From an uncultured virus (IMG/VR IMGVR_UViG_3300027851_001141) (lineage: Duplodnaviria; Heunggongvirae; Uroviricota; Caudoviricetes): 20,000 bases of DNA. The notes beneath the pieces are model-generated. The model had not been told where the DNA came from. It made no database searches and saw nothing but the letters and a program-made list of their open reading frames with translations. The translations under genes and the position numbers were made by a program. Shown here in pieces: positions 2,161 to 19,621 of the stretch. Location of the stretch: IMG/VR virus record IMGVR_UViG_3300027851_001141; one strand, 5' to 3'. Positions within the stretch are counted from its first letter, which is position 1. Every line of letters begins with the position of its first letter.

Positions 2161-2203
2161 ATTAAACGACAAAAGCCCCACCTAGGTTTCCCTAGGTGGG
2201 GCT
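2161..2203 (-). terminator. Intrinsic terminator (13-bp stem, GAAA loop)
   Basis: agccccacctagg-tttc-cctaggtggggct; minus-strand tail TTTGTCGTTTAAT. Confidence 0.9.
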
Positions 2204-2281
2204 GGCAGGTATGGACATGTAACCCAACTTACCTGTTACATAGAGGTACCCTCCTCCCGTCAGGTTTCTGCCGCGGTGGCC
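2165..2281 (-). ncRNA. Putative small RNA / start-stop minigene transcript
   Basis: Bounded by promoter 2287-2302 and terminator 2161-2203; no ORF of size; contains GGAGGAGG-8nt-ATG-TAA and internal stems. Confidence 0.6.
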
Positions 2282-2286
2282 CTACC

Positions 2287-2302
2287 TATTATGGGCAGGG
2301 TT
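2287..2302 (-). promoter_or_regulatory. Phage promoter motif AACCCTGCCCATAATA
   Basis: Matches consensus. Confidence 0.85.
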
Positions 2303-2321
2303 TGCGGGCTAGGCTTGTGTG

Positions 2322-4229: not shown

Positions 4230-4245
4230 TATTATGGAAAGGGTT
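4230..4245 (-). promoter_or_regulatory. Phage promoter motif AACCCTTTCCATAATA
   Basis: Matches consensus. Confidence 0.85.
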
Positions 4246-4249
4246 GCTT

Positions 4250-4291: not shown

Positions 4292-4329
4292 GAAAATAGC
4301 CCGACGTAATATTCCGTCGGGCTATTTTC
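4292..4329 (-). terminator. 38-bp palindromic terminator repeat, copy 1 (one substitution)
   Basis: gaaaatagcccgacgtaatattccgtcgggctattttc. Confidence 0.85.
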
Positions 4330-5275: not shown

Positions 5276-5312
5276 GAAATAGCCCGACGGAATATTCCGT
5301 CGGGCTATTTTC
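5276..5312 (-). terminator. Palindromic terminator repeat, copy 2
   Basis: gaaatagcccgacggaatattccgtcgggctattttc. Confidence 0.85.
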
Positions 5313-5572: not shown

Positions 5573-5610
5573 GAAAATAGCCCGACGGAATATTCCGTCG
5601 GGCTATTTTC
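5573..5610 (-). terminator. Perfect 38-bp palindromic terminator repeat, copy 3
   Basis: GAAAATAGCCCGACGGAAT|ATTCCGTCGGGCTATTTTC. Confidence 0.85.
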
Positions 5611-7658: not shown

Positions 7659-7674
7659 TATTATGTCCAGGGTT
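7659..7674 (-). promoter_or_regulatory. Phage promoter motif AACCCTGGACATAATA
   Basis: Matches consensus. Confidence 0.85.
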
Positions 7675-7676
7675 GT

Positions 7677-8440: not shown

Positions 8441-8445
8441 AAGGG

Positions 8446-8518
8446 TGGGACCGGCGGGACTCGAACCCGCGACCGATGGATTAAAAGTCCACTGCTCTAC
8501 CAACTGAGCTACGGTCCC
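8446..8518 (-). tRNA. trnK: tRNA-Lys(UUU), CCA not encoded (ends A-CCC)
   Basis: GGGACCG/CGGTCCC acceptor stem, GCTC/GAGC D-arm, CTTTTAA anticodon loop, GCGGG-TTCGAGT-CCCGC T-arm. Confidence 0.97.
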
Positions 8519-8522
8519 AGAA

Positions 8523-8594
8523 GTGGACACCCGAGGTGCGGGTCGGGTGTCCACGGAATGACCTAGAGGGAAAGGAGGGGAAACCTCTAGGTCA
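8523..8594 (-). other. Twin perfect hairpins with C-rich loops (possible sRNA)
   Basis: 12-bp and 11-bp perfect stems; minus-strand loops CCCGCACC and TTTCCCCTCCTTTC. Confidence 0.7.
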
Positions 8595-10713: not shown

Positions 10714-10968
10714 GACTTCAACTCCATTTCTTCCACGTAGTAGTAGAATCGTTGGTGGTTTCGGGTGTCGGGGTGATTCGTGAGAGGGTGCCCACCGAAA
10801 AGCTTTTCCCCGTCCTCGTCGCAAGCCTTCTGTGCCGCTTCGTAGGTGAGGAACGCGCCCAGATAGGTGACGAAATTTGTCGGGGTGCTTCTCGGTCTTG
10901 GTCGCAACGAAGACTTGGCGACAAGGCTCCGGCTCTGCCTCGGTCCCTTCGAGAAGGGACGTCACCAT
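10710..10968 (-). pseudogene. Gene split by a +1 frameshift near 10870-10878 (indel, sequencing error or programmed shift)
   Basis: N-terminal frame ...QVFVATKTEKHPDKF continues sensibly in the +1 frame as VTYLGAFLTYEAAQKAC... Confidence 0.6.
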
Positions 10969-11234
10969 GCTCTGGATTCCGCGTACCAATTCATGAGAAT
11001 GGCGGTGAGGTGTCCGTGAACGTCATAGATGGGATCGAGAAGGTCACCGTTTTCGTTGGTGACCTTCGTGATCTCCAGCACTTCGACGAGAGCCTTTCTC
11101 GCCTCGGGCCCGAAGATCGAGCCTGTCCAGAACTCGCCTTTCGCCTCGGCTCGTTCCTTGCTCTGTTCCAGAGTGAAGTCGATGGTCGCGATGACCCTCT
11201 CGATTTCTTTGCGAATGTCCTTGGGCTTGGTCAT
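10962..11234 (-). CDS. Hypothetical protein (MTKPKDIRKE...)
   Basis: Start reassigned to ATG 11234 (AAGGA SD), downstream of tRNA-like RNA 2. Confidence 0.8.
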   Translation of the reverse strand: MTKPKDIRKEIERVIATIDFTLEQSKERAEAKGEFWTGSIFGPEARKALVEVLEITKVTNENGDLLDPIYDVHGHLTAILMNWYAESRAW

Positions 11235-11261
11235 GATTATTTTCCTTTCCTTTTGGAACAC

Positions 11262-11392
11262 TGGCCCCCTGGGATGGACTTGAACCACCACTTTCCTTAC
11301 CTCGCATCGAAAGTTGCAGCTAACGATGCGAGACTGTGCTCTGCGTCTGCAAACACTTCGCACGGACGTTCTGCCAATTAAACTACCAGGGG
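11262..11392 (-). ncRNA. tRNA-like RNA 2 (131 nt): acceptor, D and T arms + CCA, anticodon arm replaced by a 73-nt branched domain
   Basis: CCCCTGG/CCAGGGG-G-CCA; TA-GTTT-AATTGGCA-GAAC; GGTGG-TTCAAGT-CCATC; inner CTCGCATCG/CGATGCGAG stem. Confidence 0.85.
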
Positions 11393-11420
11393 ATAGGTGA
11401 AGCCTCATGGCCTCACCGTT

Positions 11421-11436
11421 TAGTATGAGCAGGGTT
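11421..11436 (-). promoter_or_regulatory. Phage promoter motif AACCCTGCTCATACTA
   Basis: Matches consensus; drives tRNA-like RNA 2. Confidence 0.85.
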
Positions 11437-11467
11437 GCTCAATCCAACACGTCTTCCTCCAAGATCA

Positions 11468-11797
11468 TCAGTCTAGACAGTAGGAAAGTTTTGCCTTGAC
11501 CTCTCGGCACAACTCGAAGGGGTTGTCCTCCCAGCCTCCTGTGTCGTACTCGGTGCTGCACGGATAATCGTGCTCAGCCCCCACGAGAAGGTGGTCATTC
11601 TCGAAATCCTCCAACTTGGAGTAGAGGTCTTCGATTTCGTGGTCGAACTTGGACCACTTGGCGTAGAGGAACAAGAAGAGAACCCCCTGCTCGTGCTCGT
11701 ACACCTCGTTTGCTTCCTTGAGGACCGGGTGATTACGCAACTCGTCCAGGGCTCGGCCCTTTTTGATTGCCAACCCAACGTCAGTTCGCGTTGACAT
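11468..11797 (-). CDS. Hypothetical acidic phage protein (109 aa)
   Basis: AAGGAG SD. Confidence 0.8.
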   Translation of the reverse strand: MSTRTDVGLAIKKGRALDELRNHPVLKEANEVYEHEQGVLFLFLYAKWSKFDHEIEDLYSKLEDFENDHLLVGAEHDYPCSTEYDTGGWEDNPFELCREVKAKLSYCLD

Positions 11798-12154
11798 TCA
11801 AACTCCTTGAGGATGGTGACTGCGGAAAAGATTCCGGTTGTCGATGCGCCCTGTGCTCCCCGTCACGAATGCGACGAGACTCTTCCGGAAAGCCTCTTCC
11901 GAGTAGAAGAGGTGCTCGAACTGGACGGCAGGCTGAGCGTCCTTTTCGTTGCCATTCACTGCCCAAATGGTGCAGTGAGGACGAGAAACCGTCCAAATTT
12001 TTCCGTGCTCTGTTTCTTCGACACCAGAGACGATCATGGCTCGGAATGCCCACGTTGGGCCGTACACCGACTCGACGTCCAGACACACCACGTCGCCAAT
12101 GCGAATCTCGGTTTCTTCGCAATAGATGCGAAACCCGTGCTTGTTGAACTGCAT
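11798..12154 (-). CDS. Hypothetical protein (MQFNKHGFRI...)
   Basis: Start reassigned to ATG 12154 (AAGGA SD); a start at 12229 is also possible. Confidence 0.7.
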   Translation of the reverse strand: MQFNKHGFRIYCEETEIRIGDVVCLDVESVYGPTWAFRAMIVSGVEETEHGKIWTVSRPHCTIWAVNGNEKDAQPAVQFEHLFYSEEAFRKSLVAFVTGSTGRIDNRNLFRSHHPQGV

Positions 12155-12703: not shown

Positions 12704-12719
12704 TATTATGGTCAGGGTT
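12704..12719 (-). promoter_or_regulatory. Phage promoter motif AACCCTGACCATAATA
   Basis: Matches consensus. Confidence 0.85.
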
Positions 12720-12725
12720 GCTGAG

Positions 12726-16361: not shown

Positions 16362-16377
16362 TATTATGGGCAGGGTT
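16362..16377 (-). promoter_or_regulatory. Phage promoter motif AACCCTGCCCATAATA
   Basis: Matches consensus; identical to the 2287-2302 copy. Confidence 0.85.
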
Positions 16378-16574
16378 CAACCCTTGCGAACCTTTTCTAA
16401 ATGATACTGCACGTCAGCCTCTGACTCAGGATCTCCACGAACCTGTAGTATCAAGGCGCGTGCTGCTTCTGGATTTCTGTCCATCCAGTCCGGAAGAATA
16501 TACTTACGAAAGTACAGAGAGCGAAGGAGAAACCCCTCGATGTCAACGTGCTTCTGTTCCGGCTTCTTGGACAT
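16377..16574 (-). CDS. Hypothetical protein (65 aa)
   Basis: ORF tiling. Confidence 0.6.
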   Translation of the reverse strand: MSKKPEQKHVDIEGFLLRSLYFRKYILPDWMDRNPEAARALILQVRGDPESEADVQYHLEKVRKG

Positions 16575-18985: not shown

Positions 18986-19621
18986 ATGACACACGTTTGT
19001 GAATGCGGTAGAAGAAAAGACAAGAGGTCAGTAATGTGCCGCACCTGTAGACACAACCTCATGTACACCAGTTGCTCTTCAAAAACATGTACAGCATGTA
19101 AGCAGGACTTGCATTTGAGTGAGTTTAGGATACGGACCAGAAAAACTCCACGTCCAAGACCTGTGTGTAAGAAGTGCGAGTCTCTTGAACAGGCTGCCCG
19201 CCTCAAAAGAAAGAGGGAAGAGAACCCTACTGCTGTTAGGGAGAAAAAGAGAAGGTGGAGTCAGGAGAACTCTGACAGTGTGAGAAAAACCTGTGTCAGA
19301 ACCAAGTGTAGAAAGTTAGGCTGGGAGGAACACTTTATAACTCAAGTTGTAAGATACTCCCAAACCAAACTGACATGTGAAATATGCGGGTTGGACCCAT
19401 CCCTCGATGACTCTCGGTACAACAGGCTATCCGTAGACCATTGTCACACCACTAATGAGTTTCGAGGAATGTTGTGCAATAGCTGTAACTTAGCTATAGG
19501 GAAATTTCAGGACAAACCCGAGTTACTTCTTAGGGCTGTTGAATACCTTAAGAGGCCACGGCCTCTGACATTTCCCAGCACTCAGGTCCAAAGCCTCGAC
19601 GACAAGAATCCGGAACCGTGA
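18986..19621 (+). CDS. Endonuclease VII-like HNH (homing) endonuclease
   Basis: CEICG...LSVDHCH.T...RGMLC..CN.AIG.F.D....L.RA..YL is the recombination endonuclease VII pattern; N-terminal CxxC pairs. Confidence 0.9.
   Translation: MTHVCECGRRKDKRSVMCRTCRHNLMYTSCSSKTCTACKQDLHLSEFRIRTRKTPRPRPVCKKCESLEQAARLKRKREENPTAVREKKRRWSQENSDSVRKTCVRTKCRKLGWEEHFITQVVRYSQTKLTCEICGLDPSLDDSRYNRLSVDHCHTTNEFRGMLCNSCNLAIGKFQDKPELLLRAVEYLKRPRPLTFPSTQVQSLDDKNPEP

What the first reader, a model, noticed from the sequence alone, without database searches (positions are those of the whole stretch)
11262..11436. tRNA mimic 2: canonical acceptor, D and T arms with a 73-nt branched domain in place of the anticodon arm
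Seen (minus): CCCCTGG-TA-GTTT AATTGGCA GAAC-G-[TCC...GGA, 11366-11294]-AAGT-GGTGG TTCAAGT CCATC-CCAGGGG-G-CCA, 131 nt, behind its own promoter and a 9-bp leader hairpin. The insert holds GTGTTTGC/GCAGAGCAC and a perfect 9-bp CTCGCATCG/CGATGCGAG stem. The apex of that stem can present CUGCAAC, an anticodon-loop-like 7-mer (GCA) displaced from the normal position. It keeps U8, A14, G18G19 and the T-loop, so the elbow should form. The topology recalls the tmRNA tRNA-like domain, but there is no G3-U70 and no tag ORF.
Basis: partly seen in the sequence, partly recalled or inferred. Interest (0 to 1): 0.85.

Follow-up and report, generated by a model that had tools for sequence, protein, structure and literature searches.

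The report
Phage tRNA look-alike lacking an anticodon arm
An uncultured large phage carries, just behind one of its own promoters, a gene for an RNA with the full body of a tRNA, but a Y-shaped pair of hairpins sits where the anticodon arm should be, so it almost certainly cannot read codons and probably serves as a tRNA mimic of unknown job.

Summary
On the minus strand, 11392-11262 is a 131-nt tRNA-shaped gene. Rfam's tRNA model scores it 40.1 bits (cut-off 29), with 67 nt inserted where the anticodon stem-loop belongs. Acceptor, D and T arms, the 4-nt variable loop, G73 and an encoded CCA are intact. The insert folds into a 3-bp stub carrying two hairpins.

It is not an ordinary intron-bearing tRNA. 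No single excision restores a canonical anticodon arm, ARAGORN finds nothing with an intron at 37/38, and no ribozyme, tmRNA or Y-RNA model matches.

It lies 28 nt behind a phage-specific promoter box that recurs 19 times on this strand, in the leader of a small gene. Two near-identical metagenome variants keep it. One has a structure-compatible change, and its sequence is replaced starting 9 nt past the CCA.

No distant homologue was found in any collection searched, so there is no covariation, and no RNA data exist.

Best reading: a non-decoding, tRNA-scaffolded phage RNA. Its function is unknown; a decoy or a displayed domain is favoured.

The scan has noted the same class of anticodon-less phage tRNA look-alikes on other DNA, but never this sequence.

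The parts
11421..11438 (-). Phage-specific promoter box GCAACCCTGCTCATACTA
   Evidence: The motif GCAACCCNGNNCATANTA has 19 matches at up to 3 mismatches, all on the minus strand. Shuffles give 0.69 expected, and 0 of 200 reach 19. The copies lie 10-45 nt upstream of a Shine-Dalgarno site and ATG. The same box occurs 30 times in a distantly related 388-kb phage contig.
11396..11417 (-). Leader hairpin GGUGAGGCC-AUGA-GGCUUCACC (9 pairs), followed by the 3-nt spacer UAU
   Evidence: Read from the sequence. It is kept in the minimum-energy fold of the 206-nt leader.
11262..11392 (-). 131-nt tRNA-like RNA gene, including G73 and the encoded CCA
   Evidence: Rfam RF00005 scores it 40.1 bits against 29, with a 67-nt insertion.
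11368..11383 (-). D arm GUUU-AAUUGGCA-GAAC (A14, A15, G18, G19, A21)
   Evidence: Aligned to the Rfam tRNA consensus with posterior probability '*'.
11294..11366 (-). 73-nt Y-shaped domain: the stub UCC/GGA (11366-11364 with 11296-11294) carrying two hairpins
   Evidence: Partition function: stub p about 0.6. The insert alone has z -2.76.
11336..11363 (-). Hairpin A: GUGC-GAA-GUGUU-UGCA-GACGC-AGA-GCAC
   Evidence: p about 0.68. The natural variant at 11344 (RNA G49>A) turns U38-G49 into U38-A49.
11301..11332 (-). Hairpin B: perfect 9-bp stem CUCGCAUCG/CGAUGCGAG, two U-U layers, A-U and G-C pairs, loop CUGCAA
   Evidence: p about 1.0 for the 9 pairs and 0.98 for A72-U81 and G73-C80.
11273..11293 (-). 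Variable loop AAGU and T arm GGUGG-UUCAAGU-CCAUC
   Evidence: The T arm is identical to that of the tRNA-Trp of Pseudomonas phage phiK7B1.
11235..11261 (-). 27-nt spacer with a possible UUCC/GGAA mini-hairpin over a weak Shine-Dalgarno site (AAAGGAAAGGAAA)
   Evidence: A similar GUUCCA...AAAGGAAA spacer follows the second tRNA-like element.
10962..11234 (-). Downstream 90-aa gene of unknown function, presumably co-transcribed
   Evidence: No PHROG or Pfam match. Codon-position GC is 0.54/0.38/0.73, which is gene-like, against a flat 0.50/0.48/0.52 over 11235-11408.

Best explanation
The locus encodes a non-decoding RNA derived from a tRNA. It is a natural counterpart of the engineered 'tRNA scaffold'.

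Proposed steps:
1. The phage promoter box at 11438-11421 drives a transcript that starts with a 9-bp hairpin.
2. The tRNA body folds into the usual L-shape: acceptor, D arm, T arm, a 4-nt variable loop and all core contacts.
3. Host tRNA-maturation enzymes therefore handle it. RNase P cuts before C1 (11392), helped by the encoded GCCA, and the 3' end is trimmed to CCA. This releases a stable 131-nt RNA from the small-gene mRNA behind it.
4. The anticodon arm is replaced by a 3-bp stub bearing two rod-like hairpins, so the RNA cannot reach the decoding centre and is not a translational adaptor.
5. It acts by being bound. Either it is a decoy for proteins that recognise the tRNA body, with host tRNA-directed defence enzymes the most attractive targets for an RNA behind an operon-type promoter, or it is a stable chassis that displays the Y-domain to a partner.

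Shown here: the architecture, the promoter box, the lack of any splice that restores a tRNA, and retention in near-identical variants.
Inferred: transcription, processing, stability and the binding role.
For: - tRNA homology with a 67-nt insertion exactly at the anticodon arm: 40.1 bits against 29.
- Every nucleotide that builds the tRNA core is present: U8, A14, A15 with U48, G18, G19, A21, U13-G22 with G46, G26 with A44, G53-C61, U54, U55, C56 and A58. Their roles are established tRNA knowledge, recalled.
- The insert is structured: z -2.76, with a 9-bp stem at p about 1.0.
- No excision yields a 5-bp stem with Y32, U33 and R37. ARAGORN with an intron fixed at 37/38 finds nothing, and its free-position fit is a 4-pair stem with two G-U pairs and a 14-nt variable loop.
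- In contrast, 6 of 7 other phage tRNA genes with inserts of similar size are modelled as having an intron at 37/38.
- A promoter box sits 28 nt upstream. It has 19 copies, all on this strand, against 0.69 expected.
- The stretch lacks a coding signature.
- Contigs from two other metagenomes keep the element with one change in 131 nt, and that change is pair-compatible. One of them replaces the sequence starting 9 nt after the CCA, so the element ends at a recombination boundary.
- Engineered RNAs of this design (acceptor, T and D arms kept, an insert in place of the anticodon stem-loop) are described as recognised by E. coli factors, processed precisely and stable (PMC3753655, passages read).
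Against: - There is no expression evidence. No RNA run held or covered the element.
- There is no homologue below about 99% identity, so no covariation and no proof of selection. Divergence is 1 of 131 in the element against 6 of 441 in the flank of the same contig, which is no difference.
- The minimum-energy fold of the 206-nt leader does not form the acceptor, D or T stems.
- The stub is only 3 bp, with p about 0.6.
- A 148-codon frame from ATG 11408 runs through the element into the downstream gene.
- Nothing identifies a binding partner. The 14-nt loop has no complement in the window beyond chance.
- The element lies in an mRNA leader, which fits a purely cis role equally well.
Confidence: 0.45

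Rival explanations
1. It is a cis-acting leader element. The tRNA shape is a processing and stability signal for the downstream mRNA, like the 't-elements' of plant mitochondria. RNase P and a 3' cut set the mRNA's 5' end or time its translation, and the released RNA has no job of its own.
For: - It lies between a promoter and the ribosome-binding site of a small gene. The other 17 promoter copies are followed directly by a 10-45-nt leader and AAGGAGG.
- The only other tRNA-like element in the window (4954-4869) has the same layout: promoter, tRNA-like RNA ending in CCA, a spacer of about 28 nt with UUCC...GGAA, a weak AGGAAA-type ribosome-binding site, then ATG.
- Mitochondrial t-elements are reported to contribute to mRNA 5' and 3' end formation (PMC1920247, search listing and abstract only).
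Against: - A processing signal needs only the acceptor and T arm. Here the D arm, the variable-loop contacts and a 73-nt structured insert are also kept.
- In one variant, the ribosome-binding site and the 5' part of the downstream gene are replaced while the element is kept. The element is therefore not tied to that leader.
Confidence: 0.2
2. It is a working tRNA gene interrupted by an unconventional intron, which is removed to give a decoding tRNA.
For: - ARAGORN with free intron placement returns tRNA-Glu(UUC) with a 47-nt intron and a loop CUUUCGA.
- Phage tRNA genes with unexplained introns are reported in Lak megaphages (PMC6784885, passages read).
- 6 of 7 other insert-bearing phage tRNA genes found here fit an intron at 37/38.
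Against: - The ARAGORN fit puts the intron at 32/33. It has a 4-pair stem with two G-U pairs and a 14-nt variable loop, and it destroys the perfect 9-bp hairpin.
- With the intron fixed at 37/38, nothing is found.
- No single excision gives a canonical anticodon arm. The best candidates have 4 or 5 of 5 stem pairs, G-U counted, but a loop GCGAAGU or GCGAGGU with no U33.
- At 73 nt the insert is far below group I size (recalled), and no Rfam intron or ribozyme matched at E up to 10.
- There is no bulge-helix-bulge motif (read from the fold), and the signals are bacterial.
Confidence: 0.1
3. It is a dead tRNA gene, a pseudogene whose anticodon arm was destroyed by an insertion, carried along in a leader with no function.
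For: - It has no distant homologues, so it is an orphan.
- Its divergence equals that of the flank.
- Phage genomes do hold tRNA pseudogenes, for example one per terminal repeat in XacN1 (PMC5852040, passages read).
Against: - All core nucleotides, three fully base-paired tRNA stems (two G-U pairs), the CCA and a perfect 9-bp hairpin are intact.
- The insert folds better than 497 of 500 shuffles.
- The insert is not a repeat or a mobile sequence found elsewhere in the window or in the 388-kb relative.
- The element is bounded by a recombination junction, as a module would be.
Confidence: 0.15

Closest known systems
Engineered 'tRNA scaffold' RNAs (Ponchon, Dardel and colleagues; PMC3753655, passages read)
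   Same: The architecture is identical in principle. The acceptor stem, T arm and D arm are kept, and the anticodon stem-loop is replaced by a foreign structured RNA. Such chimeras are described as processed precisely and stable in E. coli.
   Different: Those are man-made expression tools. This one is natural, sits behind a phage promoter in a gene leader, and has an insert of unknown function.
Bacteriophage T4 RNAC and RNAD (species 1 and 2 RNAs)
   Same: They are small phage-encoded stable RNAs associated with the tRNA genes and still of unknown function (PMC9697503, passage read). Their tRNA-like ends and RNase P processing are recalled, not checked here.
   Different: There is no sequence similarity: blastn of the element against GenBank phages gave only 9 short tRNA-type or chance matches, none in a T4-type phage. 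In T4 these are late RNAs, whereas this element follows an operon-type promoter.
Intron-bearing tRNA genes of Lak megaphages (PMC6784885, passages read), and the phage tRNA genes with 43-63-nt inserts found here (L004, L005, L020, L021)
   Same: They are phage tRNA genes with long unexplained inserts in the anticodon region.
   Different: Those keep a recognisable anticodon arm once the insert is removed at 37/38. This one does not. The inserts are not homologous.
The tRNA-like domain of tmRNA
   Same: The acceptor and T arm are kept, and the anticodon arm is replaced by other RNA.
   Different: There is no G3:U70 (C3-G70), no tag reading frame and no pseudoknots. It is 131 nt and has a full D arm. 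ARAGORN -m and Rfam find no tmRNA.
Bacterial Y-RNA-like YrlA (Rfam RF02553)
   Same: It is a non-coding RNA containing a tRNA-mimicking module.
   Different: In YrlA the ends form the Ro-binding stem and the tRNA-like part is internal (recalled). Here the ends form the acceptor stem. There is no Rfam match at E up to 10.

Membership tests
Canonical tRNA (Rfam RF00005) | Acceptor, D and T arms with the conserved core nucleotides, and a score above the gathering cut-off | tested here: met
   40.1 bits against 29. Model positions 1-71 are all matched apart from the anticodon hairpin.
Canonical tRNA (Rfam RF00005) | Anticodon arm: a 5-bp stem and a 7-nt loop with U33 and a purine at 37 | tested here: not met
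   The arm is replaced by 67-73 nt. Default ARAGORN does not call the gene.
Intron-bearing tRNA gene | Removing one contiguous segment restores a canonical anticodon arm | tested here: not met
   An exhaustive excision scan with variable loops of 3-21 nt found none with a 5-bp stem plus Y32, U33 and R37. ARAGORN with the intron fixed at 37/38 found nothing.
Intron-bearing tRNA gene | A recognisable intron type (group I core, bulge-helix-bulge motif or self-cleaving ribozyme) | tested here: not met
   tRNA was the only Rfam family matched at E up to 10 in 10800-11900. No bulge-helix-bulge geometry appears in the predicted fold.
tmRNA | G3:U70, a tag reading frame and detection by ARAGORN or Rfam | tested here: not met
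   The pair is C3-G70. ARAGORN -m finds nothing. There is no Rfam tmRNA match.
YrlA / Y RNA | A match to RF02553, with a Ro-binding stem formed by the two ends | tested here: not met
   No match at E up to 10. The ends form a tRNA acceptor stem.
T4 RNAC/RNAD | Sequence or structural homology to the T4 RNAs | tested here: not met
   blastn against 50,697 phage records at E up to 10 gave 9 records, none T4-like. No covariance model of RNAC or RNAD was available for a structural test.
Functional tRNA mimic (processed, stable, bound by tRNA-recognising proteins) | Transcription, RNase P and 3' processing, accumulation, and a binding partner | not testable with these tools
   No RNA run covers the element. 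This needs bench work.

The most novel reading that the evidence does not exclude
The phage makes a natural tRNA-scaffolded effector RNA. The tRNA body recruits the host's own maturation enzymes to produce a very stable RNA. That RNA then works as a decoy or inhibitor of a host tRNA-directed anti-phage enzyme, such as a nuclease that cuts or amputates anticodon arms or an enzyme that attacks the CCA end. The rigid Y-domain would replace the part that such enzymes destroy. Together with the second tRNA-like element at 4954-4869, this would be an RNA-based counter-defence class placed in gene leaders.
Probability: 0.2. Interest if true: 0.8.

Novelty: new variant of a known kind. Interest (0 to 1): 0.45.

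Why it matters
Phage tRNA genes are now seen as weapons against host enzymes that destroy tRNAs (PMC10264068, PMC11555353 and PMC12445682; abstracts seen). Those cases involve working tRNAs that replace the damaged ones.

An RNA that keeps the whole tRNA body but discards the decoding arm cannot act as a replacement. If it is functional, it points to a different logic: mimicry, sequestration, or using the tRNA body as a chassis for stability and processing.

The element is compact (131 nt), its design matches a proven laboratory scaffold, and it can be tested directly in a laboratory host. Its weakness is that it is an orphan, with neither expression nor covariation data.

Tried and rejected
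- Homologue searches all failed.
  - blastn of 1 kb and of the 131-nt element against GenBank phages found nothing related.
  - An exact 28-mer in IMG/VR gave 0.
  - A degenerate D-arm/gap/T-loop pattern in IMG/VR gave 20 loci, none homologous in the insert. A T-loop-restricted version of the pattern in the JGI metagenome contigs gave 1 locus, L021, not homologous.
  - A junction pattern in IMG/VR gave 0.
  - A hairpin-B pattern in IMG/VR gave 12 loci, none in a tRNA context.
  - A pattern for the 3' half in the GTDB genomes gave 1 chance match that is not a tRNA.
  - Neither flanking protein has a relative in IMG/VR.
  - tblastn of a third protein against GenBank phages found nothing.
- No whole genome is held for this window.
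- The 388-kb relative G001 has no copy, by blastn (best E 0.6) and by my split-tRNA scan.
- Sequencing runs: no RNA holder is listed. Of the two 'RNA?' runs laid, X22 covered only 11804-11836 and X24 nothing. This says nothing about expression.
- Isotype of the tRNA body is ambiguous. The T arm and 3' end are closest to a phage tRNA-Trp (27 of 30). The D arm is of the Gln, Asn or Trp type (the parsing read only the first 50 nt of each tRNA, so its T-arm scores are not valid). G73 fits all of these (identity rules recalled).
- The insert as a nested tRNA was rejected: it is a three-way junction, not a four-way one, and has no T arm.
- The insert as a repeat or mobile element was rejected.
- An antisense target of the 14-nt loop in the window: none beyond chance.
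- The 148-aa frame through the element as a real gene was rejected. GC by codon position is flat. ATG 11408 lies in the loop of the leader hairpin with a Shine-Dalgarno site 2 nt away. One variant replaces 132 nt with 122 nt, which is not a multiple of three.
- The earlier-findings index has no note on this genome or on any look-alike sequence.

Full report
**1. What is there**

Read on the minus strand, 11392-11262 spells a 131-nt RNA:
- 7-bp acceptor stem CCCCUGG/CCAGGGG
- U8 A9
- D arm GUUU-AAUUGGCA-GAAC
- G26
- a 73-nt segment that begins UCC and ends GGA
- AAGU
- T arm GGUGG-UUCAAGU-CCAUC
- G73 and an encoded CCA

Default ARAGORN does not call it; its only call is tRNA-Lys(UUU) at 8443-8519. 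Rfam with its default speed filters also misses it. With permissive filters the Rfam tRNA model matches 11392-11265 end to end at 40.1 bits against a gathering score of 29. E is 9e-07 in 1.1 kb and 1.6e-05 in the whole window. The model places a 67-nt insertion exactly where the anticodon hairpin belongs. tRNA was the only Rfam family to match that stretch at E up to 10.

**2. The tRNA body is complete**

The sequence keeps every nucleotide that builds the L-shaped core in textbook tRNA structure. The roles below are recalled; the bases are read from the calls.
- U8 and A14
- A15 with U48 (Levitt pair)
- G18 and G19 with U55 and C56
- A21
- U13-G22 with G46
- G26 with A44
- G53-C61
- U54 with A58

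This argues against a decayed gene.

The body is closest to G73-type tRNAs. Its last 30 nt are 90% identical to the tRNA-Trp of Pseudomonas phage phiK7B1, with an identical T arm. The D arm is of the kind seen in phage tRNA-Gln, -Asn and -Trp genes. No isotype can be assigned.

**3. The insert**

I fixed the three tRNA stems and computed the partition function.
- Stub U27-C29/G97-A99: p about 0.6.
- Hairpin A: 30-33/54-57 and 37-41/46-50 around a symmetric GAA/AGA internal loop, capped by UGCA, p about 0.68.
- Hairpin B: a perfect 9-bp stem 61-69/84-92, p about 1.0. It is extended through two U-U layers by A72-U81 and G73-C80 (p 0.98) to a CUGCAA hexaloop.

The insert alone folds at -28.4 kcal/mol against -19.95 +/- 3.06 for shuffles, z -2.76, with 3 of 500 as good. 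The whole RNA folds at -48.0, z -2.56, with 5 of 200 as good.

Even then it would sit on a rod of about 13 layers beyond the stub, which is the wrong geometry for decoding.

**4. Not an ordinary intron**

- ARAGORN with introns fixed at 37/38 finds nothing.
- With free placement it forces a tRNA-Glu(UUC) with a 47-nt intron between 32 and 33, a 4-pair stem (two G-U pairs) and a 14-nt variable loop. That model destroys hairpin B.
- My exhaustive scan of single excisions, with variable loops of 3-21 nt, found no product with a 5-bp stem, Y32, U33 and R37. The best have 4 or 5 of 5 stem pairs (G-U counted) but a loop with no U33.
- As a comparison, 7 of the 21 loci fetched with the D-arm/gap/T-loop patterns are single tRNA-like genes with 7 of 7 acceptor pairs and large inserts (5 distinct sequences). 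ARAGORN models 6 of those 7 as tRNAs with a 43-63-nt intron at 37/38. The present element is therefore different in kind from these and from the Lak-megaphage introns (PMC6784885, passages read).
- tmRNA is excluded: the pair is C3-G70, there is no tag, and ARAGORN -m is empty.

**5. Context**

The window is a phage-like run of about 50 small genes, nearly all on the minus strand.
- 8 of 50 proteins match PHROGs. The only match with a named function is an endonuclease VII at 18986-19621 (+). 1 of 50 matches Pfam.
- An 18-nt box, consensus nnAACCCTGnnCATAnTA, occurs 19 times at up to 3 mismatches, always on the minus strand. Shuffles give 0.69 expected, and 0 of 200 reach 19.
- 17 copies are followed within 10-45 nt by AAGGAGG and a start codon, so the box is the operon promoter of this phage. 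The sigma-70 scan finds nothing in 10900-11900.
- One copy ends 28 nt upstream of C1. In between lie the 9-bp hairpin and UAU.
- After the CCA come 27 nt with a weak AGGAAA-type ribosome-binding site and the ATG of a 90-aa gene of unknown function.
- The frame that runs from ATG 11408 through the element has flat GC by codon position, 0.50/0.48/0.52. For 36 genes of the window the means are 0.57/0.39/0.67. It is not coding.

The same box, CCAACCCTGGCCATACTAG, occurs 30 times in one 388-kb IMG/VR contig, G001.
- G001 shares 5 of 50 window proteins at 30-46% identity.
- It carries 30 tRNA matches.
- The window therefore comes from a large, uncultured phage of that distant lineage. G001 has no copy of this element.

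**6. Conservation**

- The stretch is held in full by one freshwater metagenome run, which may be its source.
- 23 other runs, from wastewater, sludge, soil and aquatic samples, hold part of it.
- I laid contigs of two of them, X2 and X4, and both cover the element.
- X4 shows no change in it.
- X2 shows one, 11344 C>T, which is G49>A in the RNA.
- In X2, similarity stops at 11253, 9 nt past the CCA. There 132 nt, covering the ribosome-binding site and the 5' part of the next gene, are replaced by 122 other letters. Beyond that the gene is about 8% divergent (11 differences in 131 nt), against 1.2% upstream (7 in 572).
- The element thus ends at a recombination boundary and travels independently of the leader it feeds.
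- One change in 131 nt against six in 441 nt of flank is no evidence of constraint.

**7. Mechanism**

The architecture is that of the engineered tRNA scaffold. There the acceptor, T and D arms are kept and an insert replaces the anticodon stem-loop. The authors describe such chimeras as recognised by E. coli factors, processed precisely, modified and protected from degradation (PMC3753655, passages read).

I therefore infer four things:
- RNase P cleaves at C1.
- The 3' end is trimmed to the encoded CCA.
- A stable 131-nt RNA is released.
- That RNA cannot decode.

What it does then is open. I favour binding, either as a decoy for proteins that recognise the tRNA body or as a display of the Y-domain. 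The reasons are that the whole core is maintained when a processing signal would need only the acceptor and T arm, and that phage tRNA genes are now tied to host enzymes that destroy tRNAs (PMC10264068, PMC11555353 and PMC12445682; abstracts only).

A purely cis role in the leader is the main rival. It is supported by the second tRNA-like element at 4954-4869, which has the same layout of promoter, CCA-ended RNA, weak ribosome-binding site and ATG.

**8. Novelty and limits**

Anticodon-less tRNA look-alikes in phages are barely described in print.
- T4 RNAC and RNAD are still 'of yet unknown functions' (PMC9697503, passage read).
- A survey of viral structured RNAs mentions tRNA-like candidates only in general terms (PMC10690425, passages read).
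- None returned a description of this architecture in a natural phage RNA. Subscription journals are not covered.
- This scan's own notes list the same class on other genomes, but nothing on this genome or sequence.

I rate it a new variant of a known kind. It is well formed and testable, but it is an orphan without expression or covariation evidence.

Noticed in passing
It has a 7-bp acceptor CGCAGGG/CCCUGCG, a T arm GUAGG-UUCGACU-CCUAC, A73 and CCA, but no D arm. In its place is a 6-bp stem CAUCAC/GUGAUG enclosing two small hairpins. It starts about 10 nt after a promoter box and is followed by a spacer of about 28 nt with UUCC...GGAA, a weak ribosome-binding site and an ATG, as at the studied locus. 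The best tRNA-clan match in Rfam is tRNA-Sec at 15.5 bits, E 1.5, which is not significant; all 8 matches are far below their cut-offs.
   Followed up: partly
window, 19 sites on the minus strand (e.g. 16362-16379, 12704-12721, 7659-7676, 4230-4247): A phage-specific promoter-like box nnAACCCTGnnCATAnTA lies 10-45 nt upstream of AAGGAGG and ATG, with 19 copies against 0.69 expected. The same box, more uniform, occurs 30 times in the 388-kb IMG/VR contig G001. It suggests a dedicated phage RNA polymerase or sigma factor shared by the two phages.
   Followed up: partly
G001 (IMGVR_UViG_3300030332_001481) 251849-251722 (-) and 251570-251447 (-); locus L129: Two paralogous RNA-like elements of 124-128 nt have a 7-bp acceptor stem and a T arm GGAAGG-UUCGACU-CCUUC. 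They carry several internal hairpins and have no D arm and no CCA. They lie next to a tRNA gene. A weak YrlA-model match (19.8 bits, E 0.82) lies between them.
   Followed up: partly
window 8443-8519 (-) and 8523-8590: A genuine tRNA-Lys(UUU) scores 79 bits and has no encoded CCA, unlike both tRNA-like elements. It is preceded by a 12-bp hairpin (8523-8554) and a further palindrome. tRNA-Lys(UUU) is, by recall, the classic target of anticodon nucleases.
   Followed up: no
window about 2170-2304 (-): The promoter box at 2287-2304 is followed not by a ribosome-binding site but by about 85 nt holding a hairpin (AUGUAAC...GUUACAU). Then comes a 13-bp terminator-like hairpin at 2174-2203. This is a candidate small non-coding RNA gene.
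   Followed up: no
window 5573-5610, 4292-4329, 5277-5310: Three copies of a 17-19-bp perfect palindrome (GAAAATAGCCCGACGGAAT/ATTCCGTCGGGCTATTTTC) probably act as two-way terminators. A further hairpin family, CUGCGAG-AAUC-CUCGCAG, sits just upstream of several promoter boxes.
   Followed up: no
loci L004/L011/L017, L005, L020, L021, L009: Other uncultured phage contigs carry tRNA genes with the same type of D arm and 43-63-nt inserts. ARAGORN places these as introns at 37/38 (His-ATG, Ser-AGA, Ser-GCT or Asn-GTT, Leu-AAG). L009, on a 363-kb contig, has an irregular anticodon arm, a roughly 45-nt extra arm and an encoded CCA, and is not called at all.
   Followed up: partly
window 11120-11253: In one wastewater-type run (X2) this stretch is replaced by 122 unrelated letters. 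It covers the ribosome-binding site and the first 38 codons of the 90-aa gene. The next 131 nt are 8% divergent, while the element and the upstream gene are about 99% identical. This is a mosaic junction right at the 3' edge of the RNA gene.
   Followed up: partly
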